Below, in pieces: positions 7,874 to 48,785 of a stretch of 64,000 nucleotides of DNA. A program made the position numbers and the translations under genes. Under the pieces are notes generated by a model that searched no databases, was not told the origin of the DNA, and worked only from the letters and a program-made list of their open reading frames with translations. This DNA is from Tubiluchus corallicola (Eukaryota; Animalia; Priapulida), in contig JAQGDQ010000036.1 in assembly GCA_030141605.1 (NCBI GenBank), positions 62,001 to 126,000 of the forward strand, read 5' to 3'. Every line of letters starts with the position of its first letter. Position 1 is the stretch's first letter.

Positions 7874-10800
7874 ATGGTTTTGTCGGCCTACAGAATTTTC
7901 TCAGGAATGGTAGTGAAAACTAGTACACGAATTTTGAAACGACATTCAAGTAGATGTCTGTCATCTGTCAAAATTTTAATGAGACAACCAAAACCTTCAA
8001 TCTCGTCTGCTAATAACGCATTTGGGTAAGACTCTTTCATTAGAAACAAGGTTTTAAGCGTTTTACTGCCGCGTGCTCGTGTGAGTATTCATAAAGTCAT
8101 GATTATACTGTAGTGTATTATTTATTACATACCTAATTGTATTACGATACCATGCCGTGCCGCCACTCTTAAAATATGAGTGGTAGAGGTTAATCGAGCA
8201 AGCTCATTGTAACCCCATATTTCGTATCTAAATATCTATCCAGCTTATTCTTGAACTTGTTCACTGAAGATTAGCAATTTCAGATGGGAGTTCATTCCAC
8301 TCTCCGTGAAAAAATATTTTCTACAATCCAATTTAGCTCTGTATTTATAACTTTTTAGAGAATGCCCCCTCTGGTTCTGCCATCACCAGCGTAAACATTT
8401 TTTTCTTTTTCCATGCCACCTAACCCATGTATAATTTTATACGTTAATATCAAGTCTCCTCAACTGCAAGTGTGTAAGTGAGATTGTAAGTAAGAGTTTC
8501 TAACCCTCTCTTGGTATGATATTTCCTCCATACCATATGCAGCATGCCCTCTAGAAATTTAATGTCTTTTCTATAGTGTGGATTCCATGCTTGTATGCAA
8601 TACTCTAATTTAGGTCTTACCAAGCTTTTGTACAATTTCATGATTGTCATGATGTCTCTAGATACAAACAAAACTGTATTATGCATAACTGCACACATTT
8701 CGCATTATAATTGCATTTATTTTCAATGTGTATTTCATTATGGCTTTATTATACACATACTGGTTATTGGTATTGTTTAAAAAATCACATATAAATTGGC
8801 TTACTAATTTGAAGATGCTAGGGTAGCTCACAGTTGCTTTGATGTCTCACTTGGTCACTCTGTTAAATGTTTCAGGTAATCGATTTTGAGTGCTGGAGGT
8901 AACTTATACTTTATGTAACTAGTGTATGCGATTCTGTGTAACAGGTGTTTATAATTTCCTTATCTGCTTAGTAAGGGAATTTTACTCTGAATTTTGAATT
9001 TGTGAGGTTTTACTTCAGTGTTTATACCAGTAAAAGCTAGACTATCCTGTTTTCTAAAAGTACCTGTCGTGAATGCGGATTAGGTTGTTGTTTTTTTGTA
9101 AGTATTTTAGAACTTTTAATCTTTTTAGCTCTTTACAGAAAGGGGGAAGCAATTATTGGGTAACTGAAAACTCTGTTGATTTAAACCTCAAGTCCGCATT
9201 GAGGTGCAAATATATGATTAAAATAAAGTTTATTAGTATCAAAATTCTGAGTAGTAATGCCGTTTATAGAAAACAAGTTACACAAACATTTAACAAGTGA
9301 TATTTGCAATGATTATATGGAAAAGGACGATTACATGATAATGTCCATGCAAACAAATACAGCTAAATGCTGCATTTTAAGCAGAGAAAAATAAAGCTAA
9401 ATGCTATGTATGAGCCATTGGCTATAGTAAGTTAACGACTACATCAAAATGAGCATGAGTGAAACAATTTACATAAACACTGCAAAATACAAATATAATG
9501 ACTACTTAGCGATAATTGCATACGAATTATCCTCGATAAGGAAGAGGTTGAGTGCCATAATTCAATGTTATGTCACTCAAAGTTAGGTAGAAAAATTGTT
9601 GACAAGATTACAGCTATATATACCTTCTGAGAAGGAAGCTATATGCAAGTGATTTCACGGCTTATTGAGAATGAATCCAAAGCTAGTTTACATAAAGTTA
9701 AATGCATACTATGAAAACAGGTTTGCTAGGGCACATCCATGCAACCACAAATAAACACTTTTACTCGAGAACCACCATACTGGCATTGTTTTCAACAGTA
9801 CTATCATTATTGATATTTACATTTTTGTCAATTTGTTTACTTACAGTGAAAGATGTCATGCATTACCTTGCACACTAAGTGGACATACGTTATCATTTCT
9901 TAGATTTTGTTGCAGTAAGTGTTATATTATTTGATTGCTTTAGAAGTTATATTGGAGTGTGGCAATGCATACAATTTTAAATATCATGCATGTTGTTAAA
10001 ATTGATTATATTGTTTATTTTTGTCTTCGTGATGCCTTCTCAATTATTTACAGCATTAAAGTTATTATGATTTATAGTTATCAAGTCATCTTTGGCATCA
10101 TTCTGAATTAATTATTTTACTAGCAAAGGCTCCGCAAAAAATTTTACGCATAAATACACTCATAATCAAAATACATGGACATCCTGTCTAGGGTTCGTTT
10201 GCTTACCTAACGCAAAGTCAGCAGCAGCAGCTTTTACTGAATTAAAGTTATAGACAGAGTATAATGGATGACGGCACAACAATGGCTTTGCGTCAGCAGT
10301 TTTTTAAGCGAAAATTGCCAAAAATAGAACATCTAATTAACTTGTTGATACTCCTCTCAGTGGACGTGTCCTAAAATATAGCCCACATCATCGTGTAGCA
10401 CTGTTTTTCCTGTTTCTGAAGAGCTATATATCTCCTCTTGAGAGTCCCACAAGGCGCCGCTAGAACATTTTTTCCGCATACTGTTTGGTCAAAATTTCGA
10501 AAAAATCTGGGAAAATGCCCGTTGGGAAAATGCCCGTTGCGGGACACCGTGGCCCTCTCGCAAATTCTAAATATGCCTACTATACCCACCGCTGAATGGG
10601 CTATCTATCCAGCACCATCCGTGGCCCGTTCCCGTTCTTCGGATCTCAGGCATATAAGTTTTGCAAAAAACGGCCGAAAAATGGCCATTTTGGAGGTTTT
10701 TCCAAAAACATATATATATTTCAGTAGAATTAATATATATGATTTACAAATTTTTGTTAAAATAAAGCTGTAAAGAAAATGAATGGGGATTTAAGGAAAT

Positions 10801-15814: not shown

Positions 15815-18203
15815 TCAATATAAGTATGGTATTTTAATTTTTTATGTAAATTGTTAAGAGGTCTGAATGTATTAATTATTATTAGTGTAAACAAGAGATC
15901 TTGTTCTTGTAATTGTTTCTTGCGTAGAAACCAAATTCAAAATTGGCACTATTCTTTATTCATCATTCATTCATTCATTCATGAGGCAATTCTACACGAT
16001 ATTTTATGCATTCATTCGTGAGGCAATACTACACGATATTTTTTTAAATCAGCTTACAACAGATACCCGAATTGGTTGCGTGATTCAAAATGTACTCCCT
16101 TTTTTCATACCATCAGTTTTTGTCATAACATGAATGACATGTATTGACATTTAAAAATTGTTACAATATTAAAGCTTGAGTTTATCGTTGTATATGTGTG
16201 ATAAGAGCTTTGCAAAGTAATGTAATGAAAACTTCATTAGATCAAGTCAGATTAAATGCAGTGCTTATGCATGTCATTTAGTCGTAGTGTATATAGAAAT
16301 TAACACTATATGTTAATTAGTAACTAATGTTTGGACGTGTACAAAATAATATTTATTGGCACTAAAGATGACAAAAAGACTTCCATGATTCTTGGTATTC
16401 TGTATTGATGATAGCAGCTGATAGATTTTAACTTGCTAGCATGTACAAGAACTGTGCACATTTCGGGGTATTTATTGTAATATAGTTTTTCTGTCTGTGT
16501 TATTGCTAATAACATTGTTTATTATTTAAAGTAATTGTATGCATTAATTTTTAACTCTTTTTGGTGTTCCGTTTAATTTGGAAACTAACTTAATGTATTT
16601 ATTAATTATTATTAAGGATCTTTATATACAAAGTACAAAGCCGAATGGATATTCTAAGTGTTGGTGGACAAAAATATATTTTGTAAAACATGTGGTGAAA
16701 TTCACAGTTAAGTTACCAAAATTGCTGAAGCAAGTTTGCAAGTTGAATACATACTCTATATACATCACTGTATTGACCTTGCTAGTGGATGCAGCCAGTG
16801 AGTAAGCAGTGTACCACTGATGACTTACACACGTTGACAGCAACTAATTTTCAACTGATTACATACAGCCACACACTTTTAGCAGCAGCAGCACTTCTGT
16901 AATAATCTTTGACCATTTAAGATTTCTTTTGTATCTAGTATGCAATAGTGACTCGCTTTACAATAAATTTAGATTTCTATATCATGCGTAATCCTACACT
17001 AATCCCGTAAAACAGTAAATCCTAACATACATTAGCTTAGAAAACTTAAACGCATATACAGACTGCAGCAGTTATTACAGTAAGCACCTTTTCAACATCA
17101 CCTGGTAACCATTAAACTGTCAGGCCCATATATATCACAGCTATGCCCTCCTGTAAACTTATAACCTGCAACCAAGCATATCAGCAAATGGCTGACTGTA
17201 CACAATATTAATTAGCTTAACTAGTTTAATCAAATAAACACTAGTATAATTTAGCAAAGCCCACAATAGCAATTGTATAAAATCACTGAAAGACACAGCA
17301 CGGCATTTGAAACAATTTACATGACATTTACACAACATTTGAAACACAGTGCCAGTTATACACTATACGGCTGATTATAAATGAATATGAATGACAAAAT
17401 AATAAGCAGTAGAAATTAGAGAATAAAAATCAATTGCTTCATAAAATTTATAACTTAAATTTAGAATGGAAACTATAAAATTACACCAGACAAACAATAA
17501 ATCTAAAACTTAACTAGCTACATATATATTGCACCTAAAAAGTAACTGGGTAAGGAAAACTTGTTATCTTTTTCATTAAATTTAAAAAATAGAAGATGAG
17601 CAACACCTTGGTGACAATCAGCCCAACCATTATAACACAAATATGCACAATGAAATAACAAATTAAACAAAGAAACCACACTTAATAATTAACATGCAGC
17701 TAAAGAAGGCCGTAGTTAAGTATAGTTTTTATGCATCCTTTTAAGATTAATTTCTACCAGCTAGCAGTCACATATGAAAGTTGAAAAGTAATTCACATAG
17801 TTGTAGACACTTCAAACACGTGAAAGTATAGCCTTTAACAATTAACAGTTTTTATAAAACACGAGTCAAGCAATCCTTTAAAGACACTAAGTTTATATTT
17901 ATTAACACCAACGTGTGCAAGAGTTCAATCTTTCACTTCCATTGTTTTGCTGGCTAATGTTAAACAAACTTCATGTTAAAAAAAACTCGTGTCAGTAAAT
18001 CCATGTAACTGCTTTTAAGTAATTTTTTGCCACATATTTTCACTATGTCAAGTATTAAGCACTAAAGAATGCTAAAATAGTATGTAGTGCTCAGCACACT
18101 GCTAACAACCAACAGCGATTCACACGAAAAACTACATACCGGATATCACAAAGTAACTAATAATATATATATATACATAATTAACTAAAAATTAGACTAA
18201 AAA

Positions 18204-21200
18204 TTAATCTAAGACAACACTTATTCGTGGAGGATCATCTTTCATGGTGACAGCACTCTCTGTTCTTCGTAGAGGTTTCTGAGGTGCCTCTGTAAATCTC
18301 AGTTCTGGTAGAGTGTCCTCTTCTGCTGTTAGTGGTTGATCTGCTAGTGAACAAGCACTTAAGACCAATCGATTAAATTCATCTGGACGTTCTGAATAAA
18401 CATGGTGACCAGAGCCTCGAATAACCTATAAACAAAAAGTGTAATGCAAAAATTTCACCAGTTTGCTACCCGATTTTAGACAAAACAAAATATTGCGATG
18501 AACAAATTTTTCGGCGTATCAAACCCTTTTACAAGTTTTGCCTTTGTTACTTAGCTTGAGCTCCAAGAGCAAAGAACAGTAATTCTTTTTTCTGAGTGTT
18601 AGATGTCAAAACCTGTTTAATTATCTTTTTGAATCTCTTGACTGAATCTCATATAGCTATTTAATTCCTTCTTTCATTATTTATTCTCTATAATCATATT
18701 TCAATTAATAACTCATTAATCTTGCAAACTAGGGTCATGAAACTCACAGTAGGTAGCTCTGGATCGGAAAAGGTCAATAGTGTGGCAACTTCTGACCTCT
18801 GGCGAAGGGGTCAGGGACAGCAGGCACCGTTCCGCTTTTCCGTTACTCCACTTTTCCTCATAGGGCTTCTACTTTTTTCATTTTCTTCACAAGTAATTAG
18901 GTATCATCAAGTGCCTGGGGTTTTAAAAAAACTGAGACTCTTTAATGGCCCAAAATAGGAGCTAAAAGGTTAAAATTAGATCAACCATCTTTCAGTTTGT
19001 TTCAAATTTTTTTCACAAGCATTTAGGTATTATGGGATAAATGTGCATCCGGGCTTTTATAAAGCTGGGATTCCTCAAGGGCCCGAGATAGGGGCCAAAA
19101 CCAAAAAATGGGGTCTTGTTAATAACTTCATAAAATCACGAAACTTGCAGGCTAGACTCCTGAGCTAGGTGCTCAGAGAATACCATAGGAAAGATGAGCT
19201 CTTTGTCAAAGGTCATGTGACAGGAGTCAAAATATGAAAAATAGGGTAAATGACTTAGTCACTCAACTCCTCTTACAGTACTGGACTAGTTAGTCTATGT
19301 TTTGCATGTATGGGTAGCCAAGAAAGGGTAGGTGTGCACTAGGTACCTATCAGAAAGTGGGCATGACCGGGCCATGTGAATGGCAAAAGCGTTAAAAGAG
19401 GATTTTGTCAATAACTCAAAAAGTAAACAAGCTGGAGTCATGAAACTAGTAGGGCTCATGCCTGGGGCACGGCTCAGACAATGGACTAGTGAATGTTAAG
19501 AATACCTTGGGTTAAAGAATTGCTCTATGTTCTCCTACAATTTTTGAGCTAGACCTACAATTTGTGATATGTGACTAGATTGGTTCAGGTTCTTATGCAT
19601 GGCTGATATTAGCAATTTGGAAAGTGAACATTTTTTCACTAGCAACCAAAACTGAAAATAGGTGGGTTGGCACAGATGTTCTACCAATCTTAATGAATAG
19701 TGGCTGGCACATCAAATGAAAGATCCCAATGAGATGAAATGAATGGTATAGGTTGGCAGGTTATTGGTTGACTTTGCTTCTGACACAAGGTCATTTCACT
19801 GAAAAGTTAAAAGTTGCAATTTCATTGTTAAGTGCAGTTTCCGCTGTGTGAATTAAATAAAATCAAAATACTTTCAAGCAAAAGGTTGATGTACTTGCAA
19901 GGCCTAATTCTATAACAAATGTTTGCAAAATCTTGACTATGTTAGAAACAATGTTAACTAGTTTCAAATTTTTTAACTCCAAAAGTATTCGTCGAGTTGA
20001 GTTGAAATTTAGCAGGTAGATGTCCCTGGCAGTTGATATCAAACAGATGTCTTTGGATGGAAATGTTTAATTAATGAATTATAATTTTTTTTCGACTACA
20101 AAAAGTATTTATCCAGTTGAGGTTTAAAACAAAAAAAATTCATGGCAATTCATTAATTACCTAATTAAATTGACATCAAAAGCATTTAAGCAAATGAGTT
20201 AAAATAAGGTAAGATTATTAGCCGAGATGTCCTTTAATTCAAAACAAAAAATTGTAGGAATTTAGTAATTCACTGGTTAATTGCAGCTGTTTAGTTAATT
20301 GGTTTTTTAAATTGAATTCAAATGTATTTATCCAGTTAAGTTGAAAGTTGGTAGAATGATTAGCAAGGTTGTCCTTGGTTCAAAACAAAAAATTAGTTGC
20401 AATCCTTTTGTTAATTAGTTTTTTTAATTAGAGCTCTTTAATTAATTAATTGTTAATGGAAGATCACGAAAAGCAGAAGTGTATGACAATCATACACTTG
20501 ATGGCCTCAAACTAGTTCTAGTGCGTTTTAGTCTGCAATTGCGTAATATATTTATTTATGTAGACATGTTTCCGACAGTACACAACATTAGCACTGTATT
20601 CTTGCAAACCTTGACACTCATGTTATAAATCTTTAGATTTTTAATAGAAATAATCAATCAAAGTAATACCAAGGGCTCTTGATGCATAAAATAAAAAATT
20701 AACTTATTATTATTAACAGTTCATATTAGAAGGAATAACTTTTAAATATGAAATATAACCTTCAATAAACTAATAAAATCAGTTATCATATATAATAATT
20801 AACTAATAAAACTATTTATAATGCAAAAACCTAGTATTTCTTATACCATCCAATAGACATTAAGCGGAAATTATAACATTTTTGATAGGTAATGCAGGAT
20901 GCAGTCACAAACAAGCCTTGAGAAACTGGCACAACCAAACAAATATAATGATTTTCCAAATTTCATTTAGTTCTTGTAAACTAAACAGCAAAATTTGAGA
21001 ACATAGCAAGGAGTTCTGTTCTTACATGTACATCCACGTGTGAAGTGTTTCGTATACATTTTACTTGAAAACCCGTGTCACTGCTAATCCATGAGCGTGA
21101 ACCATATAGCATAGTTATCGGTATATTTTCATCTAAGTTAGTTATTCTTGTTACCATTGGGTTCTTCGCCCATCCTACAGATTGCGTCATGCAGCGAAAA

Positions 21201-24200
21201 GCTGTCTCTCCGCTGCAAGAAAATAAAAGCATCTTGAGTACACATGTAAAGTCTTACTCATTTTACTGGTGCAATAATTAAATACAACTTGCTGAAAAAG
21301 CATCTGGTAGTACCCTATAATTTTCACCTTGCATTCAAGTGAAAAAGTTCAACACATTTGGCAAAAATAACCAGCTAAAGTATAAGACTTCGAAAGTTCG
21401 GTTATGAAAACTAGCAATAATTCTATCTTGTTCAATTTCACCTCTAAGTAATACCACGCTTTCACATAATAGAAACAGAAACAAAATTACTATGACAACT
21501 TATTTTCATATATGCTGCAAGTAAACTGTTTCATTAGAAACAATAATCAATGAAACAATGATCAAACATTATTTATACACTTGTTCTTGCCAAAATCATT
21601 TGACCGACTTCTTAAAAAACATCAAACAATAAACAAGAAATGTAAACATAAACACAATCTTTACTACACTTTATTGTTGTTATAAAATCGCTTAAGACGA
21701 GTTATCAGAAGCTTATATACAAAAAAATAGCATTTACTTGAAGACTAACCTGGGTCTTTGTGCATTGCAGTGATATATGTAGTCATACACAGCTTCCTCA
21801 TCCATCTCCTTGAAACGATGCTTAAAATCTGGTCTAAATTTTTGTACCAAATTTGGTCCTATTTTGATAAAACACACACAGTTTCATATCTTAAGACACA
21901 AATACAAAAAATCATAGTGTCATTACTATGCTCATACAAATATTACAATTACATGAAAGATTTCACATTTTCTTGAATTCTTGGCTTTTACTGAATTCAA
22001 CTTATAGAATATCACACTCGACTGTAGATATTTTATTCCTTGTGCGATGAAAAACAATAGCACTTCATTTTCTGCAGACTTAGAAATAAGCATTATTTAT
22101 GGCTAACACGAAATTAAATAGTTGCAATAGCATAAACTCATTGTAAACTAACAAGTAATCTTATTTTGTATAATTAAACTGTAACAACAATTAAATGATA
22201 TTCTCATCATTCACTAGTACACACTGGAACATAAATAAAAACATTCTGTTACAACACTTTACAGTCTAGCATACTCATACTGCAAGCCATTATTCAGCAG
22301 TTACCTAATTATTATGTTTAACAGCTAATGCAGAGCTGAACCTAGTCGTTATCAAGAGTAATCGTTTACATGGGTTACTGAACCAGCAAAGATATCTTAG
22401 CTATTCTCAAAAGTAGATACATCCATCTTCAACAAAAGAACTAGCCTGAAGCAGGCGAAATTGTCATGAAACAACTTTATTGGTGGTCGCCAATTCATTT
22501 GCCAACAAGGTTGAGTATGGCTTAATTTCGGTTAGTAAGCACATTGTGACAATTCAATTATACCCTTTGCCCTTGTCTATATCAGCAAGTACTAAATCGG
22601 TTACCATAACTCTACAACATATCCTAACTCTGGTACTTTAAGAGTGGTAAGTCATATCTTGTATTGCTTGAGATCCACTGCTGAATTTCATTAAGCAAGT
22701 GATTACTTATGCAGCAGTAACTAGTTCCACCCGTTAACTGGTTCCACCAGTAGTGCTTCACACTATGAGCTGTAAGACAAGAACCCGGGCTTACTCATCC
22801 ATGCAAGACGGCACCTCAGTGGTAAACTTTCTTTTATTAATGCCTGCAATTGAAGTCCTGACTGGTTTATAATTTACTAATTCCATAGCGTCTCCTTCCT
22901 TCAATAAATTAGCCAAAAAAGAAGTTTCACACCATCATGGATCATATAATTTTATGTGCTTTGGTTCATATTGATTTATACATTTTTTGTCCTAGGTATT
23001 GCAACAAAGCAAACATGGTAGAAAAGCAGTTAGTCAAAAGTATAGAAGAACAGAGACAAAATGGTATTAAATAACTTTATACTCCTGGGTCATGGTTTTG
23101 TGCTAATTATTGGGCTAATTATTGTTTTACTTCTTGCGCACTGCATTTCAATTATATTGAAAATTAAACAAATTATCATAAATATACAAAAACTGTTTTG
23201 CAGTTTGCTTTGAGTCTTACCCCAAGGTCCAGCAGCTCGTAAAACAGCAAGTGGATTGAACGGCTGTATCAAAAATACTACAGCTCGTATCCAGAAAGGT
23301 ACAGTAGTTGTGCTTCCAGTACCTGGTCGCTCAGCAAAGCCCCAAGGGTCAACTAAGATTAAATGCTTCACTTTTTCAGGATAGCTAAAAATGAAATGTA
23401 TGAAAAGATGAAAAAGAATAGTGTGGTATATAACAAACGAGACAATGAGAGGAACACCGAGACTTTCACTATAATTATCCTGCAGTAATATTATGCAAAC
23501 GGTTATTATGAACAAACAATCTTATGGCTAACTAGGCCATATCCTAAGATGCACAAATTTGAGGGCATGAGTTTTTAGTATAGTTTTAGAATTATATAAT
23601 ATTGTATTGTTTGCACAATTAATATATTAAACACACTATACCACAAGCAGTTGCACAGCTTGCATCAATATAACTACTATGCAAATGCATGACAATTACA
23701 TGTATTTAAGTCAACAGTGACGAGGTAGATACTAGGCAATAGTGCTACTAATACAGCACTAGCAATTGTAAAACAGGTCTAATATATAAAGAACCATAAT
23801 AGATATGGGTGGAACTGATCAGTGTCAGCCTAGGGAGTCGTAATATCTTAATACGCTTCTGTGATCAAATAAAGTATTTAAACTACGAAATATTGCTACA
23901 GCGAATTACAACTCTGACGAGATCAATTTTCAACAGCTTATAACAAAATCAAGTAAAATACCTCATTGCATATGCAGTTACAAGATAGCCACCTAAACTA
24001 TGACCCAGTAGTATAAATTTATTCAACCCCATTTCTTGTCTCCATTCTTCTATACTTTCGACAAACTGCTTTTCTGCCACGTGTGCTTTGTTGTGAAACC
24101 TAGGGAAGAAATGTACAGATTAATATGAACCTAATCACATAAAAATATGTGATCCAAGATGTTATAAAACTTCTGCTAAAGTCAAAGTTAATGTGTTACA

Positions 24201-25221
24201 ACTTAGGAAACATGAAAGACGTTAAGTTACAACAAGTCCAATATCACCACTCGTTAAACAAGCATACAATTATGGAATTCCAGACTTTCATTTTTAAGCA
24301 GTTGCCACACTGTAAGGCATCTAGCAGAATGGTCATGATGTGTGTTTAGTATACAAAGTTAAGCAATGCCAAAGTGGTTAGTAAATGGATAGGTAACCGC
24401 CATATTCAATATTTGCTCCGGGTTGTTTTATTTGCCATACTAATTCTGGAAGTTAAACCTCAGTTTAATGCAAAAGCTACATCACTGCTTGCTACATCTC
24501 AGTTCATTACACTTACACACAAAAAGCAACTGAAACAATGTAATTTGTCTACTTACTTAGGGCGAGAACTCCTTCCAAAGCCAAGTACATCAAATGCATA
24601 AACAGGTCGATCTTTGGCAAAAGCATCCAAGTTTTTTACCCATAATCCAATACCAGAACCAAAACCATGAACCATAACCAATGGTGATTTTTCTTTCTTT
24701 TGCTCGACTTTTGTACTTAGTGTCCTTATAGAATTGTTGCACGATATTTCTACAAATCGGTCTTCATATGGAGACTTCAAATCTAAAAAAGTTATTTTGA
24801 ACATTGTATGATTAAAAATCAGTAACTGTCCATAAACACAATGTCCATAAACACAATGTAAATAAATTAGTAGCAAAAGCCAGTTTGCTTAACTATCTGC
24901 CATCAGTCTAAAACAGAATATGCATAACTATATAAATCAAAATAATAAACAAATAGAATAGCTAAGTCAGGCCTTTTGTTACCTTTTCTAATTGTTTTGA
25001 GTATGTGTGTTCCAAGATAAAAGAAATAGAAAAGATGTTTGTATGAATTTTTTGCGCATAAGCCGTGTTTGTCAGAGCAAGTGTCTAATCAGTTTTTGAA
25101 GTACAATGAAACAAGCAAATTATACAAACGTTTCAGAATCTTAGCCTCAGCTTCTCGTAAGGCTTGTAAAGATGTCGGACACCAAGTTAGCCAGTTCGCC
25201 ATCCAGGAAATCCAACTGCGT
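18204..25221 (-). CDS. ABHD4: Alpha/beta hydrolase of the ABHD4/ABHD5 (CGI-58) family, Ser-nucleophile (ABHD4-like) type; first coding exon not located
   Basis: Phase-consistent exons in transcript order: 25221-25130, 24782-24557, 24099-23962, 23384-23221, 21858-21750, 21212-21026, 18425-18204 (TAA). Motifs [68 protein letters not shown]. Likely co-ortholog of vertebrate ABHD4 and ABHD5. Confidence 0.93.
18536..20517 (+). mobile_element. Helitron/Helentron-like non-autonomous element filling most of the last ABHD4 intron
   Basis: Perfect 10-bp hairpin aagtgtatga-caa-tcatacactt (20477-20499), 12 nt before CTAG|T (20512-20516), matches the Helitron 3' signature. Interior has repeated aaaggtca and tgaaact motifs. 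5' boundary approximate. Confidence 0.5.
22921..23098 (+). repeat. Inverted, degenerate duplicate of the ABHD4 intron end plus catalytic exon (mirror of 23995-24173)
   Basis: Hand alignment gives ~32 differences in 180 columns, e.g. gaaaagcagttagtcaaaagtatagaagaa versus exon gaaaagcagtttgtcgaaagtatagaagaa. The copy has a 2-nt deletion, so it is not coding. Confidence 0.93.
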
Positions 25222-25713
25222 CTAAACAGACAATAATCTTAGATATTGTATTCGGTCAGCAACAAAATTAATTTCAAAATTAATTCTCTTCTTGTTCATA
25301 TAAAAATGCAACCTGTCTACAAAAGAATACAAATCTGTAAATGACCTAGTTAATGAATGCTCGATAGTATCAACTTTAATAGATGCACAATATACACCAC
25401 TTAAGGTTCTATATCTTCTCTTGTTCAGTCATAAATCTGAATAAATCTGTCTAACTTTTTCAGGTCTTCCAAAAAATTTTCTACAAACTCTCCAGTTGCT
25501 TCTCTTACTGATAAATGTGGCAATTAGCAGGATTAGAGAATCCATAACAGCATGGCTGCTTTGCTCATTATACCCAATCCTGTGACTTTTTCTTCAAATT
25601 ATCAACAAATTAACATTACATAACACAAAGAACATGATGCATGATTCCATTCAATAAAACTTCAGTATGTATTGCTACGATGTGTGAAAGTTCATTAGGA
25701 AAGAAATTAAGAG

Positions 25714-27959
<2,246 letters not shown>

Positions 27960-28328
27960 GTTAAGAGACACTTACATTACAAGGTGAATGGAAAATCCTG
28001 TTTAAAAAATTATTTTCAATTTTTCATGTTCCTTGTACACTGCAAGTAATTTATTGTGACTTTAAAAAGTATTTTTACCGTGTATTTGCAACTTGAGCAG
28101 CTTCACTGGCTGTACTTATAGACATTCTTTGGCACAAAGTAATTAATATTTATTCATCCATAAGCTGTAAGGAAAACATGATTCATGAAAATATGCAAAT
28201 AACAGATGAAAATTTATAACAAATAAGTGTAAAATAAAACGACAACATCATTTTGCTAGTATACTGGTACATGAATAACACTTAAAGTGTCATCATAATT
28301 TTAACTCCAGTTTATAGATTTTGCAGTA

Positions 28329-29002
28329 TTGTTGGGAGCCGAGTGGACCACTGAGCCAAGTAGACCAATTGTACTGACACCGTCCGTTGTGCTTGTTTAT
28401 GTAATAATAATAATTAAAAACGTTAGTACACGTTGAATAATTTATTATACATCTAATAAAATAAAAGAATTTTATTCTGAGCTGGTAGAACGGACAATAT
28501 TAAATTTAGTTTCGATATTAATGTTGTTGAAGTGAAAAAAAACCACTTTTTTGCGAATTCAACATTTGTTTAAGGTATATCATTTTTGATTTTGTCTCAC
28601 TTCACAAACAGGTGATCCGTTTCACTATCTCTTGGGCAAATAATTGTTTTTTTATAAGTAAATGTTCTAGCGATCTATGTGTCCTACATGGGCTAGCGAG
28701 CCATGTAGGACAGTGACCTACATGTTACAATACTACTGATAATATTAAAACTAATTATCCTTGCTTTTCTTAAATGTTAAAAATTACTGTTTTACCAACA
28801 AGTTTTTTACCAACAAACAAGCACAATTTTTAATAAAATGAAGAAACTTTCACAGAATTTTCAAAAATTTGACAACATTACCGATTCTCGACAAAAATCG
28901 CTAGTGTCCTACTTGGGCTGCCCATGTAGGACACTACTTTTAGCGCATCGGTTTTACCGGAAGTGGTCTACTTGGCTCAGTGGTCAACTCGGCTCCCTAC
29001 AG
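28329..29002. mobile_element. Tc1/mariner/pogo-type MITE (674 bp) with ~39-bp TIRs and TA target duplication
   Basis: Left ta|ttgttgggagccgagtggaccactgagccaagtagacca; right tggtctacttggctcagtggtcaactcggctccctacag|ta. Two internal palindromes at ~28680-28712 and ~28903-28935. No transposase ORF. Confidence 0.85.
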
Positions 29003-30959
29003 TATCACCATAATAGGCTACAATTAATCATGGCCTGAAAACGTATCAAAGGACGTCCAGTCGTCCATTGAGAGTTTACCGTTAAAGAGTGAGACTGGGA
29101 TTAATAGTTTTATAAGTAACTTCCTATACGTCATCAATATTTTATCTCCAGTTTACAACTTATGTAGCATCACCATTTCAAGCAGTTATCAAGAGACGCC
29201 CAGTCGTCCTTTGACAGTCTAATGTTAATGATTGAGATTAATAAGTTTTATAACTCCCTACGCTTCTAAAACGTTTCTATAGTTCAATGTTGCGATAATC
29301 AAAATAAAGTTCTTTATTTCAGTACAAAATTAATAGAGCCAAGTATTTCGTAAGCCTATTTAACATCGAATTACCACAGAGATTTACTGACTGGGTAGAC
29401 TAACATTATGGGTAATCTTCTTAACCACACACTTAGTGCCCTAAAGATTTCTGTTACTGTATATTAAGCGTTTTGTTTTGCACGGAAGTGGTGTTGACAG
29501 GTCACTGGCATTTAGCTTCTAGTTTTTTTGCGATTATTGCTGTGTTTACCTGTCTTGAGGGAAGATTTCTTTTATTTTATAGTTCTGAAATGTACTTGAA
29601 GAAATTAAACATGCCATTTCTATCTATTCTCAAAGAGATTTAAGAAGTATCATTTAAAAATTATCGTTTGTGTGATTTAACTTTCCAAAATTAGCATGGC
29701 CTGACCATATTCCTCATAATGATGTCGACTGTATGTTTATTGATTCTTTACACGATAACCCGCTTTCTCGGTTAGTTCATTTTGATATCGCAAAAACAGT
29801 TGTCTAGAATTAGTCGTAATTAATTGTCCTGAACGCATTACGAATTACTCTGCTTGGCATTGATTTTCAACTAGCAATCATGACACTAGCACTTTTGATG
29901 ATGAATACAATTGACGTCAAGCATATTGGTCTATCACTCTGCCTCCGCTGTGATGTAAGCACGCCCAACGGCATTCGAGACAGCAGCTCACGCTGGATAA
30001 CAACTGTCTTTAGTGGTCACCATGACAACTAATGTCTAATCAGCAGATAAACTGCTTCTTCATATACAGAAATTTGCAGAGCGGCTGTTAGTTTTACGCG
30101 AAATTAACACATCAAGAAGCCAAAAAATTTCCAGACGAATTGCTCATAATCGTGACAGTTGTCACTGATTCTCATGGATGAGTTCAACTCTGCGGCTAAG
30201 CCTCGACTATTGCTGACCAAAGCTGACTAGCTTATTCTCTACAACCTGCACAAGCCTATTTATAGGTTTGCAGTCTGTAATTTTTACTGCAAGTTAACTG
30301 TGAATCATTTGTACATTCAGCTCGATGATTTGAAGTTATAACTTTCTTCTGAACTCTGTTCAGGTCGGCTGTTTGACGTTTGCGATCATCAAAGCAGTGT
30401 CAAAAGATTGGCCTTACCTCGCTAGGTATATTTATCCTTTTTTAAAGTTAGCGAAATAGTTGTTTTAACTTTTCATCTAACTTACAAAGTCAAAAATCAA
30501 AGTAAACTGCATATTTTATTGCTTGCAAAATAGTTAATCAGCAACTTGTAGACATAAGCCTTGTGCATTTCTTCCTATTATGGCAAAACTAGACTATGTT
30601 TTTCCACTAATTCACTTGCAATTTGAATCGACAATAATAAAATCTAGAACCAGGCCAATATTTCTCCCGCTAACTAACGAAAAATTGGGTATTTTTCATA
30701 ACGGTATTATATGACTGGCCATACGCAGCTGTAGCTAAATGTCCTGAAGGCACCAGCGTTAAATAAGCTCTACAGGGGTGTGAAAAATCTTGCGTGCTTG
30801 ACATCAATTGCCAACAACTTGCAAATAGACCCTGGCATGACTTTAATCATTCTAAGTTAACTTCATTAGTAATTTTTTTTGAAAGTATTTGACAGGTAAG
30901 CTCAGTTTGACAATTTTGGCATTATTACATGTTGGACTTATATATTCCCCTTGGCTAAA

Positions 30960-31745
30960 CGACCCCATTATTACTAAAGCAAGAACTCGTAAATGCAAAT
31001 TATTTTCAAAATGGAACTATTCTAATCTTAGCAGTGTTTATGCTGAATATACTCACTCCTCGTGGGAATTGAAATCAGCTTTATATTCTGCTCGCATATG
31101 ATAGGAGGAGCGCTCTTGCAAATCGACTAAGTAAGATGGTAAAGAGTTTTGCCGTTATAGTAAACACTTCCTTAAACCTTCTAATCACATTACTACTATT
31201 AACAATCATCAACATGTTATTTCTGATCCTATCATGGTTGCTAATACTATTAATGATTCTTTTGCTTCTTTTTTCACTAATTAACCTGGTGATGATCCGT
31301 TACCAACTCGCTCGTCTTGGAATAATGATAGTATATTCTTATGTTGAATTTACCGTGAATGATGTCTGTGATAAACTTTCCAAACTTAAACCCTTCAAAG
31401 CTTTTGACTCTGACAATGTTCATGAGCTTATATTGAAATCACGTGCCTCGCAACTTTCACTGCCTCTTTTTCTTCTTTTTGGCATATCCTTGGAGTCTGC
31501 TATAGTGCCTCAGAAGTGGTTAGATTGTAGTGTTACCCCTATCCCAAAAAAATACTACCAACTTTACATGTAGTGATTCACGCCTTATTTCTCCATCTTC
31601 TGTTGTTTCTAAATGTCTTGAATCTCTTTTGTGGGATGATATACTAAATTTCCTGCTATTTTCTGGCCAATTCCTTAATAATCAACATGGCTTATTACCA
31701 CAATGTTCCACCATAACAAATCTTCTTGAATGCTTGAATGCCTAA
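30960..31745 (+). mobile_element. CR1/L2-like LINE ORF2 fragment (N-terminal part of RT), frameshifted
   Basis: KLSKLKPFKAFDSDNVH..LK...LSLPL..LF..SL....VPQKW....VTPIPKK, then RLIS..SVVSKCLES..QHG..STITNLLE in ORFs 31136-31573 and 31530-31745. Confidence 0.85.
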
Positions 31746-38200: not shown

Positions 38201-41200
38201 ACCTCAGGCAAAAAATCTGATTTGGCTAATGTCGGCCACTGCACATTTACTGGCCGACAATACCCGGACGAGTCGGGTAATGTCAACCAGTACTGAAACA
38301 CACCAATACACAGGTATACTGTATGAAGTATTGCAGTACGTCTATTAAATTTCATTGAAACCCATCTAATCGTTGTTTGAAATAGTCTTTAACATCCTCA
38401 GTATAGATGATTATTCATTATAGTACATGTAGTTACTAAAAATATTATAAAACACTAAGGCAACTATGAAATCTTGTAGTAAATCACCTAACTATTCTGG
38501 AGATTTGTTGCTGATGCAGATGACAGACAACTAGAACAAGAGAACCACATCTAGCTGAACAAAGCTAGCTCTGCTGATTGGCTACTGCGTGCTATAAAAA
38601 GTCAGACTAGGTCACGCGACATGTTTACAATCCATAGGAAGTGGCCGGCTAACATTAGCCGATGGCTGACATTACCTCAATATATCTATCTATAGATTTC
38701 AGTCTAACTGTAGGTTAGTAACTGATTATCATATATAAAGTTTTCTGTTTTAGGGAAACATTGGCAATAATTCTTGAAGAAGTACAAAATCCTGAAAGGT
38801 TAGTTTATTTGCTCAGAATAAATTTTTTACCTTTGATTTTGCTTTGTATGTTAATTGTAATCCTGCTTACTTATTATTGTATTATGTATTATTTTTCCAT
38901 GGTGCATTAGCCGTGTAGAACACTGAGTAAAAAATTACTAATGATCATTTTGAGTGAAAGGGGAATAGGGTATTTCAAGGTTAAGGCACACCCCTAGTTT
39001 TAGTGATTAAATAAGCTTTTCAAAACTTCAAGACCAGTTTAGTAGACTTAGATGAAAATCCCGAAAAGGTGCTGCTATAAAGTTCTAGGAACATTTGTTT
39101 CTAAAAGAGGACAACATAGCCAGTCTTATCAGTTTTACTATGCTGAATACATAAAAACTGTTGTCTTTCAAAAATTAGCAGTAAAGGGTCAAAAATATAA
39201 AAAAATCAAAATGGCTGCCAAGTTTTTATACAAAGTATTTGAGTGAAAAGAAATTTCCCAGAAAACTAATAAAAAAGGCAATTATAACTTATTCAAGGGT
39301 ACTTGGACCCCACTCAATCCATTTCTCTTACTTTCATTTTAAAAATGATCCTAAACAGATCCGTCTTCTGAAATAACGTGATTTGGATTTCGTTTTGCCG
39401 TTTTCTTGAGCCTAATTTTTCAATTTCTGCTAAAACAAGTAATAATTATGTTGTAACTTTGATGAATATTAGAATGTGGAATAGTTTTGTCATGTAAAAC
39501 TTGTGCCCCTCTGCCAGAAGAAGGAAGTACGTCTGTCAGTGCACGAAAATTTTCCAGCCCTGGAGACAGGATGATGATTTGAGTATCAAAATATAGGTTT
39601 TAAAGTTCAAAGATTTGGGGTAGTATCATTATTATTGATACTGATCTGTAACTATATCAACAATATCACGTATGAAACTACACATTCAGTGTAGGGCCTG
39701 ACGAAGAAACCAATAATAAGAAACAAACAGTTTAAGTCAGAATTTGTAGATAATGGTATATAGATAACTCGATAACATTACCTCTAAAATATCACACTTA
39801 CAATTATCATGTTTACAGAGAGCTGAGCAAACAAAACTTGCTTTGACACTTACATTTACCAAAGCACCCCTGTGGCAGCAACATTTAATAAGTTGTCGAC
39901 ATATTTCACGTTTTTATGTCTAATGTAGATCCTAGGCCACGCCGTTGACCTGTTCCAGCCCCAGTTAAATGATGATGGTAAAATTGGGTGTGATGGAAGC
40001 TTGCCCATCTTGCCTGATATACCACACTCCTGGCGTGCTCCAATAGGATTCGCCTCCATTGACCGTCCTTTTCTTGTAACAAGTGCTTTGTCATAGTGCT
40101 AGCTGGTGACAGGATTACACTAAAAAACATGCTAACACAATCATAAGTTCAGGGTTTCTTAGAGATATAAATGCTTATGTTGCTGCATCAAATACTTGCC
40201 ATATTTTTTCTCTCTCTCTGTAAATGCTGAAGTTGATCACAGCTAGTTTTGGCATGGAATGCTGGCTGACTTGATACGTTTTCAGTGTCGATGGTATTCA
40301 CAATTTCATGTGGCCTGAGATATGGCCTTTATAAGCTAGTAACGGCTATATTGTGTGCTATGTTGGATGCTTCCTTAAACATAGAGCTTCATAACCTGTA
40401 TATAGGTACTAAAATTATCATCATATTTGCCATGGAACATGCAATCTGCTGCACCCATCTTGACAGCCATGCTGAAATTCTAATTGATGTAATGTATTAA
40501 CTGTTTTTAAGCATCAAATATAGATTCCTTGACTTTAAAAAAACTATATTTCAACACCAAAATTGTCATCTTTTCTGCTGTAGCAGCTAAAATATGGTTT
40601 TTAAAAACCAGCAACAATCATCTTGAAAATGGCAGCCATATTAGATGATTTTTGTTGGCCTAATGTCCATAATTACTCACCTTTATGTATTATAGCATTG
40701 TGCATAAGTTTTAGAAAAAAGGAACAAGTGTTTCACCATTCTCCTAGGCTGGTATCTAGCATCCTTTTTATTTTTTGCTTATTGGACTCTTAAAACTGCT
40801 TTGTATCCTTTTTGAGGTCTACGGGCAGCTTTTTACATTCAGCAATGTCAACTGATAAAAATAATTTGCTTTTTGTTTTATAATGAAGCTTTAAATGAAA
40901 CAGTTAATATAATTGCATTATCAGCATAGTTTGATTTTGTCTGGTGGCTATTTATGAAATGAAAGTAACACGAATGGACTGTTTAGGTCAAACTGCCCTG
41001 GAATAGATGTCATGATCGCCCGCCTCTTAATATTAATTTACTGGCAATTTCTTTTCATTTATATTGCTTGTGCAAAAACTTGAAGGCAATTTGTTTTTTG
41101 TTTTGCATTTTTGACTCTGTTTCTCTCATTTTCCAAGCTGCCAACAGTTTCTTTGGATTCAGCATAGTCAAATTGATAAGACTGGCTATGTTGCTTACTT

Positions 41201-44686: not shown

Positions 44687-47360
44687 ACTCATTATCAGCA
44701 CTCAAGTACAAGGTACATGATGTTTCTGTTTGCCTTTAAAGTTTTCTTTTTTGCTGAATCTTCAAAATTTTATCTATATCTGTATAAGTGATTCTCTGGA
44801 CATGTGTTAAAACATGGTACTGATATTACAGTTTTTCTTTTTTAGTAGGTGATGAGTGTAAACACTTTTTCCGTTTATTTAACCCCAACGAGTACCTGCG
44901 CGAAATAGCCAGTTTTAGCACATTAATGCTGTGTCATTAGTGCATTAACACAGCACTATTTCTTCTAACTTGTACAGTATTGTCGGTACTTGTCAAAACA
45001 TATTATCTTATGTTTTTTCTGCTCATACACACAGCCAAACTGCATCAACTAGCTAAAAAATTTTAACGTTATTTGGTCATAATTATCCAATTTGTCTAAT
45101 ATAAATTTGTTTTACTATAAATACAATAAATTATAATAACAATTGAAATTTCCATAATTGTTACAACTCTGCCATTTTGTTAGGACCAATATTGATTACA
45201 GTTGAGGCCTTGACGGAAAATGTAAAGTGGATAGAACATTGATGAATGAAACTTTTCATAAAGCTTGTATCGTTCCTAAACACCTTTACTAATAAAGGTA
45301 ACATTAATTACAGTAGTCGTTGCTTAATGATGCTAATGCGTTCCAGCAGAATGCAGTGCTAAAAGAATTGTTGTCTAAATGAAAAAACCACACCATGGAA
45401 AGCATGCAGATGCATTCCAGGAGTAACAGTCACTAATTTTTAGCTCGGATAAATCGATCATCTTGTGAGTGTTATTGCTTACTTTTAAATGTGTTACTTG
45501 TTTACTAATAGACAAAGATTAACTATATATTGTAATGCGTTTACATAGTTTACCTAAAATAACACATATAGTGATTTTGTTACCTATCCGTTTTGACATA
45601 ATTCGTTCAAAACATGGTTTTCGTGCTTTCTCCTCTGGTGAAACTACGTAACCTGAGCCTTGTTTGTTGCAATTGTGATCTATCTTTAGGGTTGACAGGG
45701 ATCACTTAAGAACTTTGCTAATATTTATTACTCTGCCTTCCTCTATGGTAGTATACTGACTGGTATAAGACAAGTAAATCAAGAGGTTGGCTCTGCCTTG
45801 GGATTATAGTAAAATGTTTTATTTATAATATGCATTTCCTAAGTATGTAGTCCTTGTATTTATCTTTTTGAGTGTTAATCCACGGTATTGAAAGCAAGAG
45901 TTAATATCTCACTTTTACATAACAAGTACTGTTAACATACTAAATGCCTTCTTTCTAAAAATATATGTTATATTTTTATTGTATGTAAACAGAAAAATAT
46001 TAAAATGAATGACACTGCACTTGTAGTTAGATTTCAAATACTAGCTATATTTTCCAGTTTTTGTGATTACAATGAATTATGTTTAACTATTAGGTTATCT
46101 ATTTATATAGGAGTGTGAAAACACAAAATATACTTGTAAACCAATAGAAGCAATTCCTTTTTAAAATGTATAAATGCCTTTAAAACTGTGGACTTTAAAA
46201 TTAAGTGATCTGTGTGAAGAACTTCAGCGAGAAAAATTCGAATCTCTTTGCAATCTTCAAACAAATTAGCAATTATTATCACTCACTAGGTGTAATTTTG
46301 CAGAACATAATTTTGAGTATGTACAAACCAAAAGAGATTATATTTTGTAAGCTACGTATTTTTAAAAGTAAGAAGTCTATTTTCTATTTATAAGGTGATC
46401 AGTACTATTAGATTGTACAGTGTTTTAGAAACATGAATTTTGATGGTTATTTTTATACAAGCTTTTATATTTATAAAATATCCTAAACAGGGCCGTCGAG
46501 AGCCATTGTGAGCCCCGGGTCACCAAGCATTAAAGGCCCCACTTCAAGTGGCAAAACATTACATAAAGCTGAACTAAATACACAAATGGCACCATTAATG
46601 TTGTAACGTAAGAACCTAAGACATTGATGCTGTGATATTTTGAAACTAAATTAACTAATTCTCCATTATTTCCAATGCCTCCACCAATCAAAAAGGTACT
46701 ACTGTTAAGAGAAAAGATGGAGAAAGGCCAAGAAGAAATTGCAAATCCACACAAACAACTTTATGAAGAAAAAACTTTAGGAGCTCTATATAGCTTGTAA
46801 ACTTACAGATGGTGTAGTACAATGCCAAGTGACAGAAAAAGTAAAGTTATGTTACTCCAAAACATTTCATTCACTGATAAATGTCTTTCAGTGGTAATCC
46901 TGATGGTTTCTCTTATTACTACCCATAGGCATTAGTCAAAGAATGGATTGTATTTGGGTAACATAGCTTTATTTTTTCTGTCATTTGACATCATACTACA
47001 ATTATAAGTTTACAATTTAGTATTTGTTTTGTTTGCTTTTCACAAGGTGGATTTTTGCAGTTTTCGTGTACTGTATTTTTATTAGGTGGATTGTTGCCAT
47101 GTTATGGTCAAAACCTGTACTTACGTGGGTACTGGCTGTTATTTTCATTTTAATTTATTAACTTTTAATTGTAAATATTTTCATATTCGTAACGTGTAAA
47201 AATATGTAACTAGTTTTGCATCAGTAAATGACAAGGTAAAAATTAATGTACATTTGCATAAATTTGACTTGCAGTTGTTTCTGCTAAACCAGTTTCTCTT
47301 ACTCCTGCCTGACTAAGTCAGTTTGCAAATTAAATTTTACTAACATACTGGATAAGATAA

Positions 47361-47926
47361 ATTTATTTATTTAGTAATTTTTTCTTTTATCATGTTTTGT
47401 GTATTGCACAATATTCATAGTTATTGTCTTTATTGCTCAATATTTTAGTAGGTAAATACCTACATATATCTCCACATATTAAGTTATTTACCGTTTCATA
47501 TAAACACATGTTTACTTTATTTTTTCTACTTGTTGGGTACGATGTATTATGGTGTAGCGGCTGTGATTTAGGCCTTTATTTCTATTGTTATGATCATGCA
47601 TTAAAAGTGAATACTTTAAATCAATGCTTGTAGAGTTTTGATTATTTATTTATTTAGTAATTTTTTCTTTTATCATGTTTTGTGTATTGCACAATATTCA
47701 TAGTTATTGTCTTTATTGCTCAATATTTTAGTAGGTAAATACCTACATATATCTCCACATATTAAGTTATTTACCGTTTCATATAAACACATGTTTACTT
47801 TATTTTTTCTACTTGTTGGGTACGATGTATTATGGTGTAGCGGCTGTGATTTAGGCCTTTATTTCTATTGTTATGATCATGCATTAAAAGTGAATACTTT
47901 AAATCAATGCTTGTAGAGTTTTGATT
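47361..47926 (+). repeat. Perfect head-to-tail 283-bp tandem duplication
   Basis: 47361-47643 equals 47644-47926; identical 69-aa ORFs at 47424 and 47707 are offset by 283 nt. Confidence 0.96.
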
Positions 47927-48785
47927 CTTCTGTGCAGTGTTTCCTTAACTGTATATTTTCCCAAAAACTTTAACAACAGGCTTTGTTTTTTAGAATAATG
48001 TTAAAACTCAAAAGTAATAATGCATTTTATTACAGTTGTTAAGCATATTTCATGACACAACTCTAAAAGCAGCGGTTCTTCAGGAATACACTTTTTAAAT
48101 AATTTAAAGCAAAACAGGACGATTTTTCATATGCTACTCCATTTTGAAGTTCGGTAAAATGTATACATTTTAACCAACAAAATAATGCCAAAGATTTTCT
48201 GATAATTGAATTACAGGTTAAAAACTTAATTAACAGCAGGCGAGCCCAGCTAGTGATGACCTCACAAACGAACACAATTTTCAACAGCACAAATATTCCG
48301 TGAGCGTGTTTATGAAAGCAAAAATTGAAGTACAGTACTACTATACAAGATTCAGTGTAATATACAAAAACTCGTATATATACATATACTACATATACAT
48401 AAATTGAAATTTTATATTTACCGCCATGCTCATGCATGAGCTCTCGAGCTTGTATATTATGTCAGAAATGAACAGCTCTGGACTAAGAGGTACAGCACCT
48501 GTTTTTCATGCAACACGTTTCCGAAATGCAGGTGTTCATTGCCATCTAACTAATGAATGGCGAAATGCATGTAACTGCGAAGAACTAGCCACTGGAACAC
48601 AAAGTTACTTTTGTGTGGTAATAATTCTTTCATGTAAATCATTCTTTAAAAAAATAGTATGTTCTCTTTCAATATTTTAAAGAGTAGATTGTTTTGGCCT
48701 ATAGTTTATGATTGGGTCGGGTTTTCCTTTAAACTTGCAGTGCATTTTGGTTTTTGCTAGATCTGTTGTCATTGTGTATTTATTG

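What the first reader, a model, noticed from the sequence alone, without database searches (positions are those of the whole stretch)
22921..24173. Built-in antisense copy of the ABHD4/5 catalytic exon that can form a ~180-bp pre-mRNA fold-back duplex
Seen: plus-strand 22921-23098 is an inverted copy of 23995-24173, covering ~74 nt of intron end, the acceptor AG and the first ~105 nt of the GHSLG exon. By hand alignment ~148/180 columns are identical, and 9 of the differences would still pair as G:U in the minus-strand transcript. The copy lies in the intron after the next exon, so the arms enclose a ~900-nt loop. It is derived from the gene's own exon, not from a transposon. Established: intronic exon-complementary sequences direct ADAR editing and alter splicing. 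Inference: a local inverted duplication may have given this gene its own cis-regulatory dsRNA. Neutral decay of an accidental duplication is the main alternative, since differences fall in both the exon-derived and intron-derived parts.
Basis: partly seen in the sequence, partly recalled or inferred. Interest (0 to 1): 0.85.

Follow-up and report, generated by a model that had tools for sequence, protein, structure and literature searches.

The report
Decaying backwards copy of lipase exon
A lipase gene (ABHD4/5) of an invertebrate carries an old backwards copy of most of its catalytic exon in a later intron, so the unspliced RNA is predicted to fold back on itself, but the copy has changed as freely as nearby non-coding DNA and is likely a harmless leftover, with one untested hint that editing could switch off the catalytic serine.

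Summary
Observation confirmed: 22920-23098 (+) is an inverted copy of 23995-24174 (149/181 identical; 75 nt of intron end, the acceptor, 105 of 138 nt of the GHSLG exon), and a fold-back duplex is predicted (-194.5 kcal/mol). It lies in a second sample and, in part, in a diverged lineage (X5), so it is real and old. No test supports selection for pairing: 9 of 18 transitions give G:U on the gene strand and 9 on the other; 90% of neutral simulations fold more stably; copy-versus-X5 divergence (9/58) matches the flank (12/83); both segregating variants in the arms break pairs. Best reading: a local inverted duplication decaying neutrally, perhaps passively edited. One new lead: the first base of the catalytic Ser codon sits in an A.C mismatch in UAG context, where editing would give Ser to Gly and likely a hydrolase-dead, ABHD5-like protein. 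Chance alone gives this about 5% of the time, the site lies 4 bp from the duplex end, and no RNA covers the exon. The scan noted similar inverted exon copies in other genomes.

The parts
22920..23098 (+). Inverted copy (downstream arm in the transcript) of intron end + acceptor + first 105 nt of the GHSLG exon; own 1-nt insertion and 2-nt deletion
   Evidence: present in X1, X2, X4 and partly in X5 contigs
23995..24174 (-). Parent arm: 75 nt intron end (branch-point-like heptamer near 24120, pyrimidine tract, AG at 24101-24100) and 105 nt of exon
   Evidence: branch point read from the sequence, not tested
23962..24099 (-). ABHD4/5 exon with the GHSLG nucleophile elbow, 138 nt, phase 2-2 (skipping would keep the frame)
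23999..23999 (-). First base (A) of the nucleophile Ser codon AGU, context UAG, unpaired opposite C (copy position 23094); A-to-I would read Gly
   Evidence: editing itself not observed
23221..23384 (-). Exon inside the 896-nt loop (164 nt, phase 2-1)
   Evidence: joined to the next exon in X6 contig
21859..23220 (-). Host intron (1362 nt) that holds the copy 122 nt from its donor
   Evidence: joint 'skips 1362' in X6
24100..24556 (-). Upstream intron (457 nt) whose acceptor would be covered by the duplex
22330..22919 (.). Flank left of the copy, 39% GC against 28% in the rest of the intron; origin not identified; partly shared with X5

Best explanation
A 180-base piece of this ABHD4/5 gene (intron end, acceptor and most of the catalytic exon) was copied backwards into the intron after the next exon, likely by a template-switch repair event, and has likely decayed as neutral DNA ever since. 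Shown: the copy, its place, its presence in a diverged lineage, and a substitution pattern without any pairing bias. Predicted: the nascent RNA can fold the arms into an imperfect duplex of short helices (runs of 1-26 paired bases). Inferred: the copy is tolerated because the 457-nt upstream intron is likely committed to splicing before the copy, 896 nt past the parent arm, is transcribed; what remains is a short-lived exon-intron duplex that ADAR may edit passively at low level until the host intron is removed.
For: G:U on gene strand 9, on opposite strand 9, of 18 transitions (p=1); duplex -194.5 versus -194.3 kcal/mol for the untranscribed strand. In 400 neutral simulations with the same substitution spectrum and indels: mean -204.8 +/- 8.2, 89.7% at least as stable; 81% with 9 or more wobbles; 57.5% with a paired run of 26 or more. 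Substitutions at codon positions 1/2/3 = 6/5/5 and intron 13/75 versus exon 16/103, so most changes likely fell on the copy; both CpGs of the parent are lost in the copy. X5 contig (238 nt, depth 4.4) joins the same left flank (22783-22835) to a copy with its own 2-nt deletion and is 75 nt shorter between flank and copy; window copy versus X5 copy 9/58, flank versus X5 12/83 (counted by hand tables 7 and 8; Fisher p=1). The two within-species variants in the arms (23032, 24150) both have a pair-breaking allele that differs from the other arm; 2 in 254 non-coding arm bases against 13 in about 3500 other intron bases (p=0.27). No Rfam match (0 at E<=1). Templated inverted insertions are a known repair product (PMC11724301, PMC5120786; search listing only); most recoding editing in animals is described as nonadaptive (PMC9989829, passages).
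Against: The copy has lasted through about 16% substitution and a lineage split without being lost (though its flank has too). Intron and third-codon positions are not more diverged than codon positions 1+2 (18/109 versus 11/69; a twofold excess is nearly rejected, p=0.067), which could mean some constraint on the parent's neutral sites. The A.C mismatch at the Ser codon in UAG context is the textbook ADAR site (10.1101/605972, passages). All counts are small, the X5 contig is under depth 5 and covers only 58 comparable bases of the copy, and X5's parent exon was not seen, so compensatory changes could not be counted. The repair mechanism and the splicing-timing argument are inference; no junction signature beyond a shared 5-nt word left of both arms was seen.
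Confidence: 0.7

Rival explanations
1. The copy is a selected editing-complementary sequence: ADAR deaminates A23999, turning GHSLG into GHGLG, so that one gene makes both an active hydrolase and a hydrolase-dead, ABHD5-like lipase activator.
For: A23999 is unpaired opposite C, flanked by 9 and 4 predicted pairs, context UAG, the most efficient ADAR configuration in LEAPER (10.1101/605972, passages). Vertebrate ABHD5 lacks the serine and activates ATGL through R299, G328, D334; many invertebrate homologues carry these plus the serine (PMC5314347, passages). This protein has the R (YGSRSW) and G (GSGHH) equivalents and E for D (equivalence read from motif alignment, not from an ABHD5 sequence). 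The layout matches an intronic ECS (PMC1920255, passages).
Against: Chance of this mismatch under neutral decay is 4.8%, 9.6% for any exonic UAG, and it was picked after the fact. Only 4 duplicated pairs lie 3' of the A; ADAR2 dsRBD2 contacts reach +14 on that side (PMC11334849, passages), and LEAPER found mismatches near the guide's 5' end weaker; the predicted extension beyond 23995 is not significant homology (p=0.20). 40 exonic adenosines lie in the arm, most recoding conserved residues if edited. 0 of 133 homologues have Gly at the nucleophile (130 Ser, 1 Asn, 2 no motif; none closer than 77%). No conservation of the copy. Whether X5 has the C is unknown: its contig ends at 24047.
Confidence: 0.07
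2. The duplex regulates splicing by hiding the branch point and acceptor: it causes in-frame loss of the 138-nt catalytic exon, or loss of both exons (302 nt, frameshift), or favours a two-exon circle.
For: Mean pairing probability over 24125-24097 rises from 0.59 to 0.76 with the copy, and the AG is fully paired. The exon is phase 2-2. Reverse-complementary matches promote skipping and back-splicing in C. elegans (PMC8330042, abstract) and inverted Alus in hominoids (PMC13019027, passages).
Against: In those cases both arms are intronic and flank the exon; here one arm buries the acceptor that back-splicing would need. The blocking arm is made after the acceptor. X6's contig shows the looped exon joined normally to the next two exons (whether X6's lineage has the copy is unknown). 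No sign of selection for pairing.
Confidence: 0.08
3. The fresh, perfect duplex was mildly harmful, and selection has favoured pair-breaking changes in the copy.
For: Observed duplex is weaker than 89.7% of neutral simulations; changes fall on the copy side more than a symmetric neutral model expects (p=0.067); both segregating variants break pairs.
Against: Neither test is significant; copy divergence equals flank divergence rather than exceeding it; CpG decay explains two of the changes.
Confidence: 0.14
4. Assembly artefact.
For: X1-X3 may be the sample the window was assembled from.
Against: Arms differ at 18% of columns; X4 from another study and the diverged X5 both hold the copy next to the same flank.
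Confidence: 0.01

Closest known systems
[quoted passage not shown]
   Same: An exon pairs with a complementary stretch in a downstream intron before splicing; a C in the intron arm opposes an exonic A.
   Different: Editing there is measured and needed; here none is observed. The arm lies one intron further on, is 180 nt long, covers the acceptor, and shows no conservation.
Reverse-complementary matches and inverted Alu pairs that drive loop-out skipping and circRNA (PMC8330042 abstract; PMC13019027 passages)
   Same: Inverted arms within about 1 kb enclose an exon and are predicted to form a stable stem.
   Different: One arm is the gene's own acceptor and exon rather than an intronic repeat; no skipped or circular product is shown; the C. 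elegans zip-2 match is conserved across species, this one drifts.
Templated inverted insertions / local inverted duplications from template-switch repair (PMC11724301, PMC5120786; search listing only)
   Same: A short piece of nearby DNA inserted in reverse orientation about 1 kb from its source.
   Different: Fixed, old (16% substitutions) and inside a gene; junction signatures have mostly eroded, so the pathway is inferred.
Vertebrate ABHD4 and ABHD5 (PMC5314347, passages)
   Same: Host gene is equally a relative of both; it has the ABHD4-type serine and motif equivalents of ABHD5 R299 and G328.
   Different: E in place of D334; no Ser-to-Gly editing of this family turned up in the searches made.

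Membership tests
Intronic editing-complementary sequence (ADAR recoding site) | Intron sequence complementary to the exon, able to form a duplex in pre-mRNA | tested here: met
   (prediction only)
Intronic editing-complementary sequence (ADAR recoding site) | Target A in preferred context (A.C mismatch, 5' U, 3' G) | tested here: met
   A23999; preference; chance 4.8%
Intronic editing-complementary sequence (ADAR recoding site) | Enough duplex on both sides of the target A | tested here: inconclusive
   9 pairs 5', 4 pairs 3', then a loop and chance pairing; ADAR2 contacts to +14
Intronic editing-complementary sequence (ADAR recoding site) | A-to-G seen in RNA against matched DNA | not testable with these tools
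   No laid RNA record covers the exon
Intronic editing-complementary sequence (ADAR recoding site) | Pairing conserved: slow arm, wobble or compensatory bias | tested here: not met
   9/18 wobbles; simulations; 9/58 versus 12/83; small numbers; compensatory changes could not be counted
Intronic editing-complementary sequence (ADAR recoding site) | Host has ADAR1/ADAR2 | not tested
   No genome held; ADARs present in nearly all of 22 holozoans surveyed (PMC9989829 passages)
RCM / inverted-repeat loop-out skipping and circRNA | Both arms in introns flanking the exon, splice sites left free | tested here: not met
   Upstream arm covers the acceptor and 105 nt of exon
RCM / inverted-repeat loop-out skipping and circRNA | Skipped or back-spliced junction in RNA | tested here: inconclusive
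   One X6 contig shows only normal downstream joints; the upstream joint is not resolved
Local inverted duplication (templated insertion) | Single-copy source nearby, copy in reverse orientation | tested here: met
Local inverted duplication (templated insertion) | Microhomology or filler at the junctions | tested here: inconclusive
   A 5-nt word is shared left of both arms, separated from the copy by 6 extra bases; flanks align no better than shuffles
ABHD4/5 alpha/beta hydrolase | GxSxG nucleophile elbow, HVY motif, Abhydrolase_1 match, exon-wise similarity to named members | tested here: met

The most novel reading that the evidence does not exclude
A gene's own duplicated exon became its ADAR guide: the copy places a C opposite the A of the nucleophile serine codon, and editing toggles one invertebrate ABHD4/5 between an active lipase and a serine-less ABHD5-like lipase activator, reaching by RNA editing what vertebrates reached by gene duplication.
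Probability: 0.06. Interest if true: 0.8.

Novelty: new member of a known kind. Interest (0 to 1): 0.27.

Why it matters
As read here it is an ordinary, old inverted duplication, useful mainly as an example of how raw editing-complementary sequences can arise from a gene's own exon and be tolerated even over a catalytic exon and its acceptor. If the serine codon proves to be edited at a regulated level, it would be an editing switch between enzyme and pseudo-enzyme in the ABHD4/5 family and would speak to the open question, raised in PMC5314347, of whether invertebrate homologues have dual hydrolase and lipase-activating functions. One amplicon experiment decides it.

Tried and rejected
No RNA holder listed for the stretch; the one RNA-type contig (X6) does not cover the GHSLG exon or the arms: no evidence either way on editing or skipping. 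The six X6 differences that were listed (of 16) are all synonymous third positions, so they mark a diverged lineage, not editing. Idea that 22330-22919 is a decayed LINE reverse transcriptase that brought the copy along: no Pfam family in 6 of 6 frames, no match to other retroelement-like frames in the window, 0 hits for one frame among 1.84 billion representatives (the other five frames were not searched there), no extra X1 depth: not supported. Idea that the copy continues past 23098 over the rest of the exon: no better than shuffles (p=0.84 and 0.20); left extension likewise (p=0.57). Recent gene conversion: longest identical run is 14 nt, not supported. No whole genome is held, so genome-wide frequency of such copies and ADAR presence were not tested. 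Rfam: 0 matches. Earlier findings near this place or like this sequence: none. Paper searches for this element or for priapulid editing found nothing relevant (none of the 10 listed holds 'priapulid'; 44: one unrelated paper); supplements were not opened and subscription journals are mostly missing. No structure or complex prediction was run, as none bears on the claim.

Full report
1. Observation. The inverted pair is there. Local alignment gives 22920-23098 against the reverse complement of 23995-24174, 149 of 181 columns identical, E 3.7e-44. A more sensitive self-comparison of 17500-27500 found no second fragment of the gene copied nearby. Splice signals and homologue alignments place the exons on the minus strand at ...24557, 24099-23962 (GHSLG, 138 nt, phase 2-2), 23384-23221 (164 nt), 21858-21750. 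The copy lies 122 nt into intron 23220-21859, which an RNA-type contig of run X6 skips exactly. The gene is an ABHD4/5 homologue. The host is an invertebrate, probably a priapulid: one RECK exon of the window has Priapulus caudatus as its only hit, 76% over 61% of the query, 1 of 4 candidates, and earlier notes on this genome say the same (unchecked).

2. It is real and old. One X1 contig spans 21394-25700 with 5 differences; X4, from another study, covers 22912-23062 with one. X1 may be the window's own source. X5 carries the same species label but almost none of the sampled words. Its one informative contig (238 nt, depth 4.4, so errors are possible) joins the left flank 22783-22835 to an arm that matches the parent over 24047-24126 with 9 differences and a 2-nt deletion inside the exon part, so it is a copy and not the working exon. 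Laid on the copy alone it matches 22984-23011 with 3 differences, where copy and parent differ at 6, so at least 3 changes are shared with the window's copy (arithmetic). It is 75 nt shorter between flank and copy. The duplication therefore predates the split of the two lineages.

3. The duplex is predicted. The 1301-nt minus strand folds with the arms paired; the arms alone give -194.5 kcal/mol against -316.7 for a perfect copy, in paired runs of 1-26. The acceptor region is more paired with the copy (0.76) than without (0.59). These are equilibrium predictions that ignore co-transcriptional splicing.

4. Tests for selection on pairing. (a) Each transition gives a G:U on exactly one strand; 9 of 18 do so on the gene strand and 9 on the other, and the untranscribed strand folds equally well, -194.3. 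(b) In 400 simulations with the same strand-symmetric spectrum and indels, 89.7% were at least as stable, 81% had 9 or more wobbles, 57.5% had a run of 26 or more. (c) Changes fall evenly on codon positions 1/2/3 (6/5/5) and on intron and exon parts (13/75, 16/103), and both parent CpGs are gone from the copy. (d) Window copy versus X5 copy 9/58, flank versus X5 flank 12/83, p=1 (hand counts, test; only aligned or printed letters count, which biases both low). (e) The two within-species variants in the arms, 23032 (X2 and X4 carry the pairing allele) and 24150 (X1), each have a pair-breaking allele; variants are not scarcer in the arms (2/254 versus 13 in about 3500, p=0.27; cover differs between runs). 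Against a plain neutral model: intron plus third positions (18/109) are not more diverged than positions 1+2 (11/69), p=0.067 for a twofold excess. That could reflect constraint on the parent's splice signals, faster change in the copy, or chance. All samples are small; weak selection either way is not excluded.

5. Mechanism I commit to. A repair template switch likely copied 180 nt backwards about 1 kb away (inferred; class of event from PMC11724301 and PMC5120786, search listing only). It was tolerated because the blocking arm is made only after the polymerase has passed 896 nt beyond the parent arm, by which time the 457-nt upstream intron is likely committed (inferred from general knowledge of co-transcriptional splicing, recalled). 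The remaining exon-intron duplex lasts until the host intron is cut and may be edited passively; ADARs are near-universal in animals and most recoding is described as nonadaptive (PMC9989829, passages). Confidence 0.70.

6. The lead worth one experiment. The copy has G at 23094, which puts C opposite A23999, the first base of the nucleophile Ser codon, in UAG context. That is the best ADAR configuration in LEAPER (10.1101/605972, passages). Editing would read Gly. Vertebrate ABHD5 lacks this serine and activates ATGL through R299, G328 and D334, and the authors ask whether invertebrate homologues are dual-function (PMC5314347, passages); this protein has motif equivalents of R and G, and E for D. 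Against: chance 4.8%, or 9.6% for any exonic UAG, chosen after the fact; only 4 duplicated pairs 3' of the A, where ADAR2's dsRBD2 reaches +14 (PMC11334849, passages) and where LEAPER guides were weaker; the apparent extension is chance pairing; 40 exonic adenosines are exposed; 0 of 133 homologues have Gly there (120 of the 163 hits plus 13 new ones, none closer than 77%); X5's contig stops short of the site. The A of the acceptor AG (24101) is also in a UAG, fully paired. Probability of a selected switch about 0.06.

7. Comparison with what is known. It works, if at all, like an intronic ECS (PMC1920255, passages) or like reverse-complementary matches that cause skipping and circles (PMC8330042, abstract; PMC13019027, passages). 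It fails the conservation test for the first and the geometry test for the second, and the RNA tests could not be run, so I file it under neither. It is a member of the class of local inverted duplications. This scan has noted the same layout in other genomes (RIM-BP, slit, FoxP, TCF4, COX18, DALRD3), mostly read as neutral and once with editing reported; these are unchecked notes and say only that the layout recurs. Searches listed no paper on this element; supplements were not opened.

8. Verdict. Observation confirmed; regulatory reading unproven and unsupported by five sequence tests; new member of a known kind; interest 0.27.

Noticed in passing
window 39112-39346 and 40950-41193: Second long inverted pair (248 columns, 73%, duplex -177 kcal/mol) inside an amino-acid-transporter-like (SLC7-type, name recalled from motifs) gene on the plus strand; the two exons my motif search found lie upstream (36235, 38776); looks repeat-derived. 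Shows that stems of similar strength occur in other pre-mRNAs of this window.
   Followed up: partly
window 46795-47015, 14-135, 10652-10715: Imperfect palindromes (73-76%), MITE-like.
   Followed up: no
window 28327-28370 and 28961-29004: 44-nt inverted termini at 91% enclosing about 590 nt, like a small DNA transposon.
   Followed up: no
window 47361-47929: Tandem duplication of 283 nt at 99.65% identity: very young or an assembly duplication.
   Followed up: no
window 23635-23770 and 24328-24449: Short multicopy repeat fragments in the loop intron and upstream intron; contigs of other loci pile up here in X1, X4, X5.
   Followed up: no
window 22330-22919: 590-nt single-copy stretch at 39% GC directly beside the copy, in a 28% GC intron; no protein or family match.
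   Followed up: yes
window 22920-22996 (+): The copy keeps a branch-point-like heptamer, a pyrimidine tract and AG on the plus strand, so an antisense transcript could use it as an acceptor; no such transcript seen.
   Followed up: no
window 49707-50789 (-): 360-codon open frame rich in G, Y, H, R, N with no Pfam match at E<=0.1.
   Followed up: partly
window 26483-26722: Pure (CT)n microsatellite of about 240 nt upstream of the ABHD4/5 exons.
   Followed up: no
window 31073-31745 (+) and 8450-8704 (-): Frames that resemble decayed non-LTR reverse transcriptase by recalled motifs; no Pfam match.
   Followed up: partly
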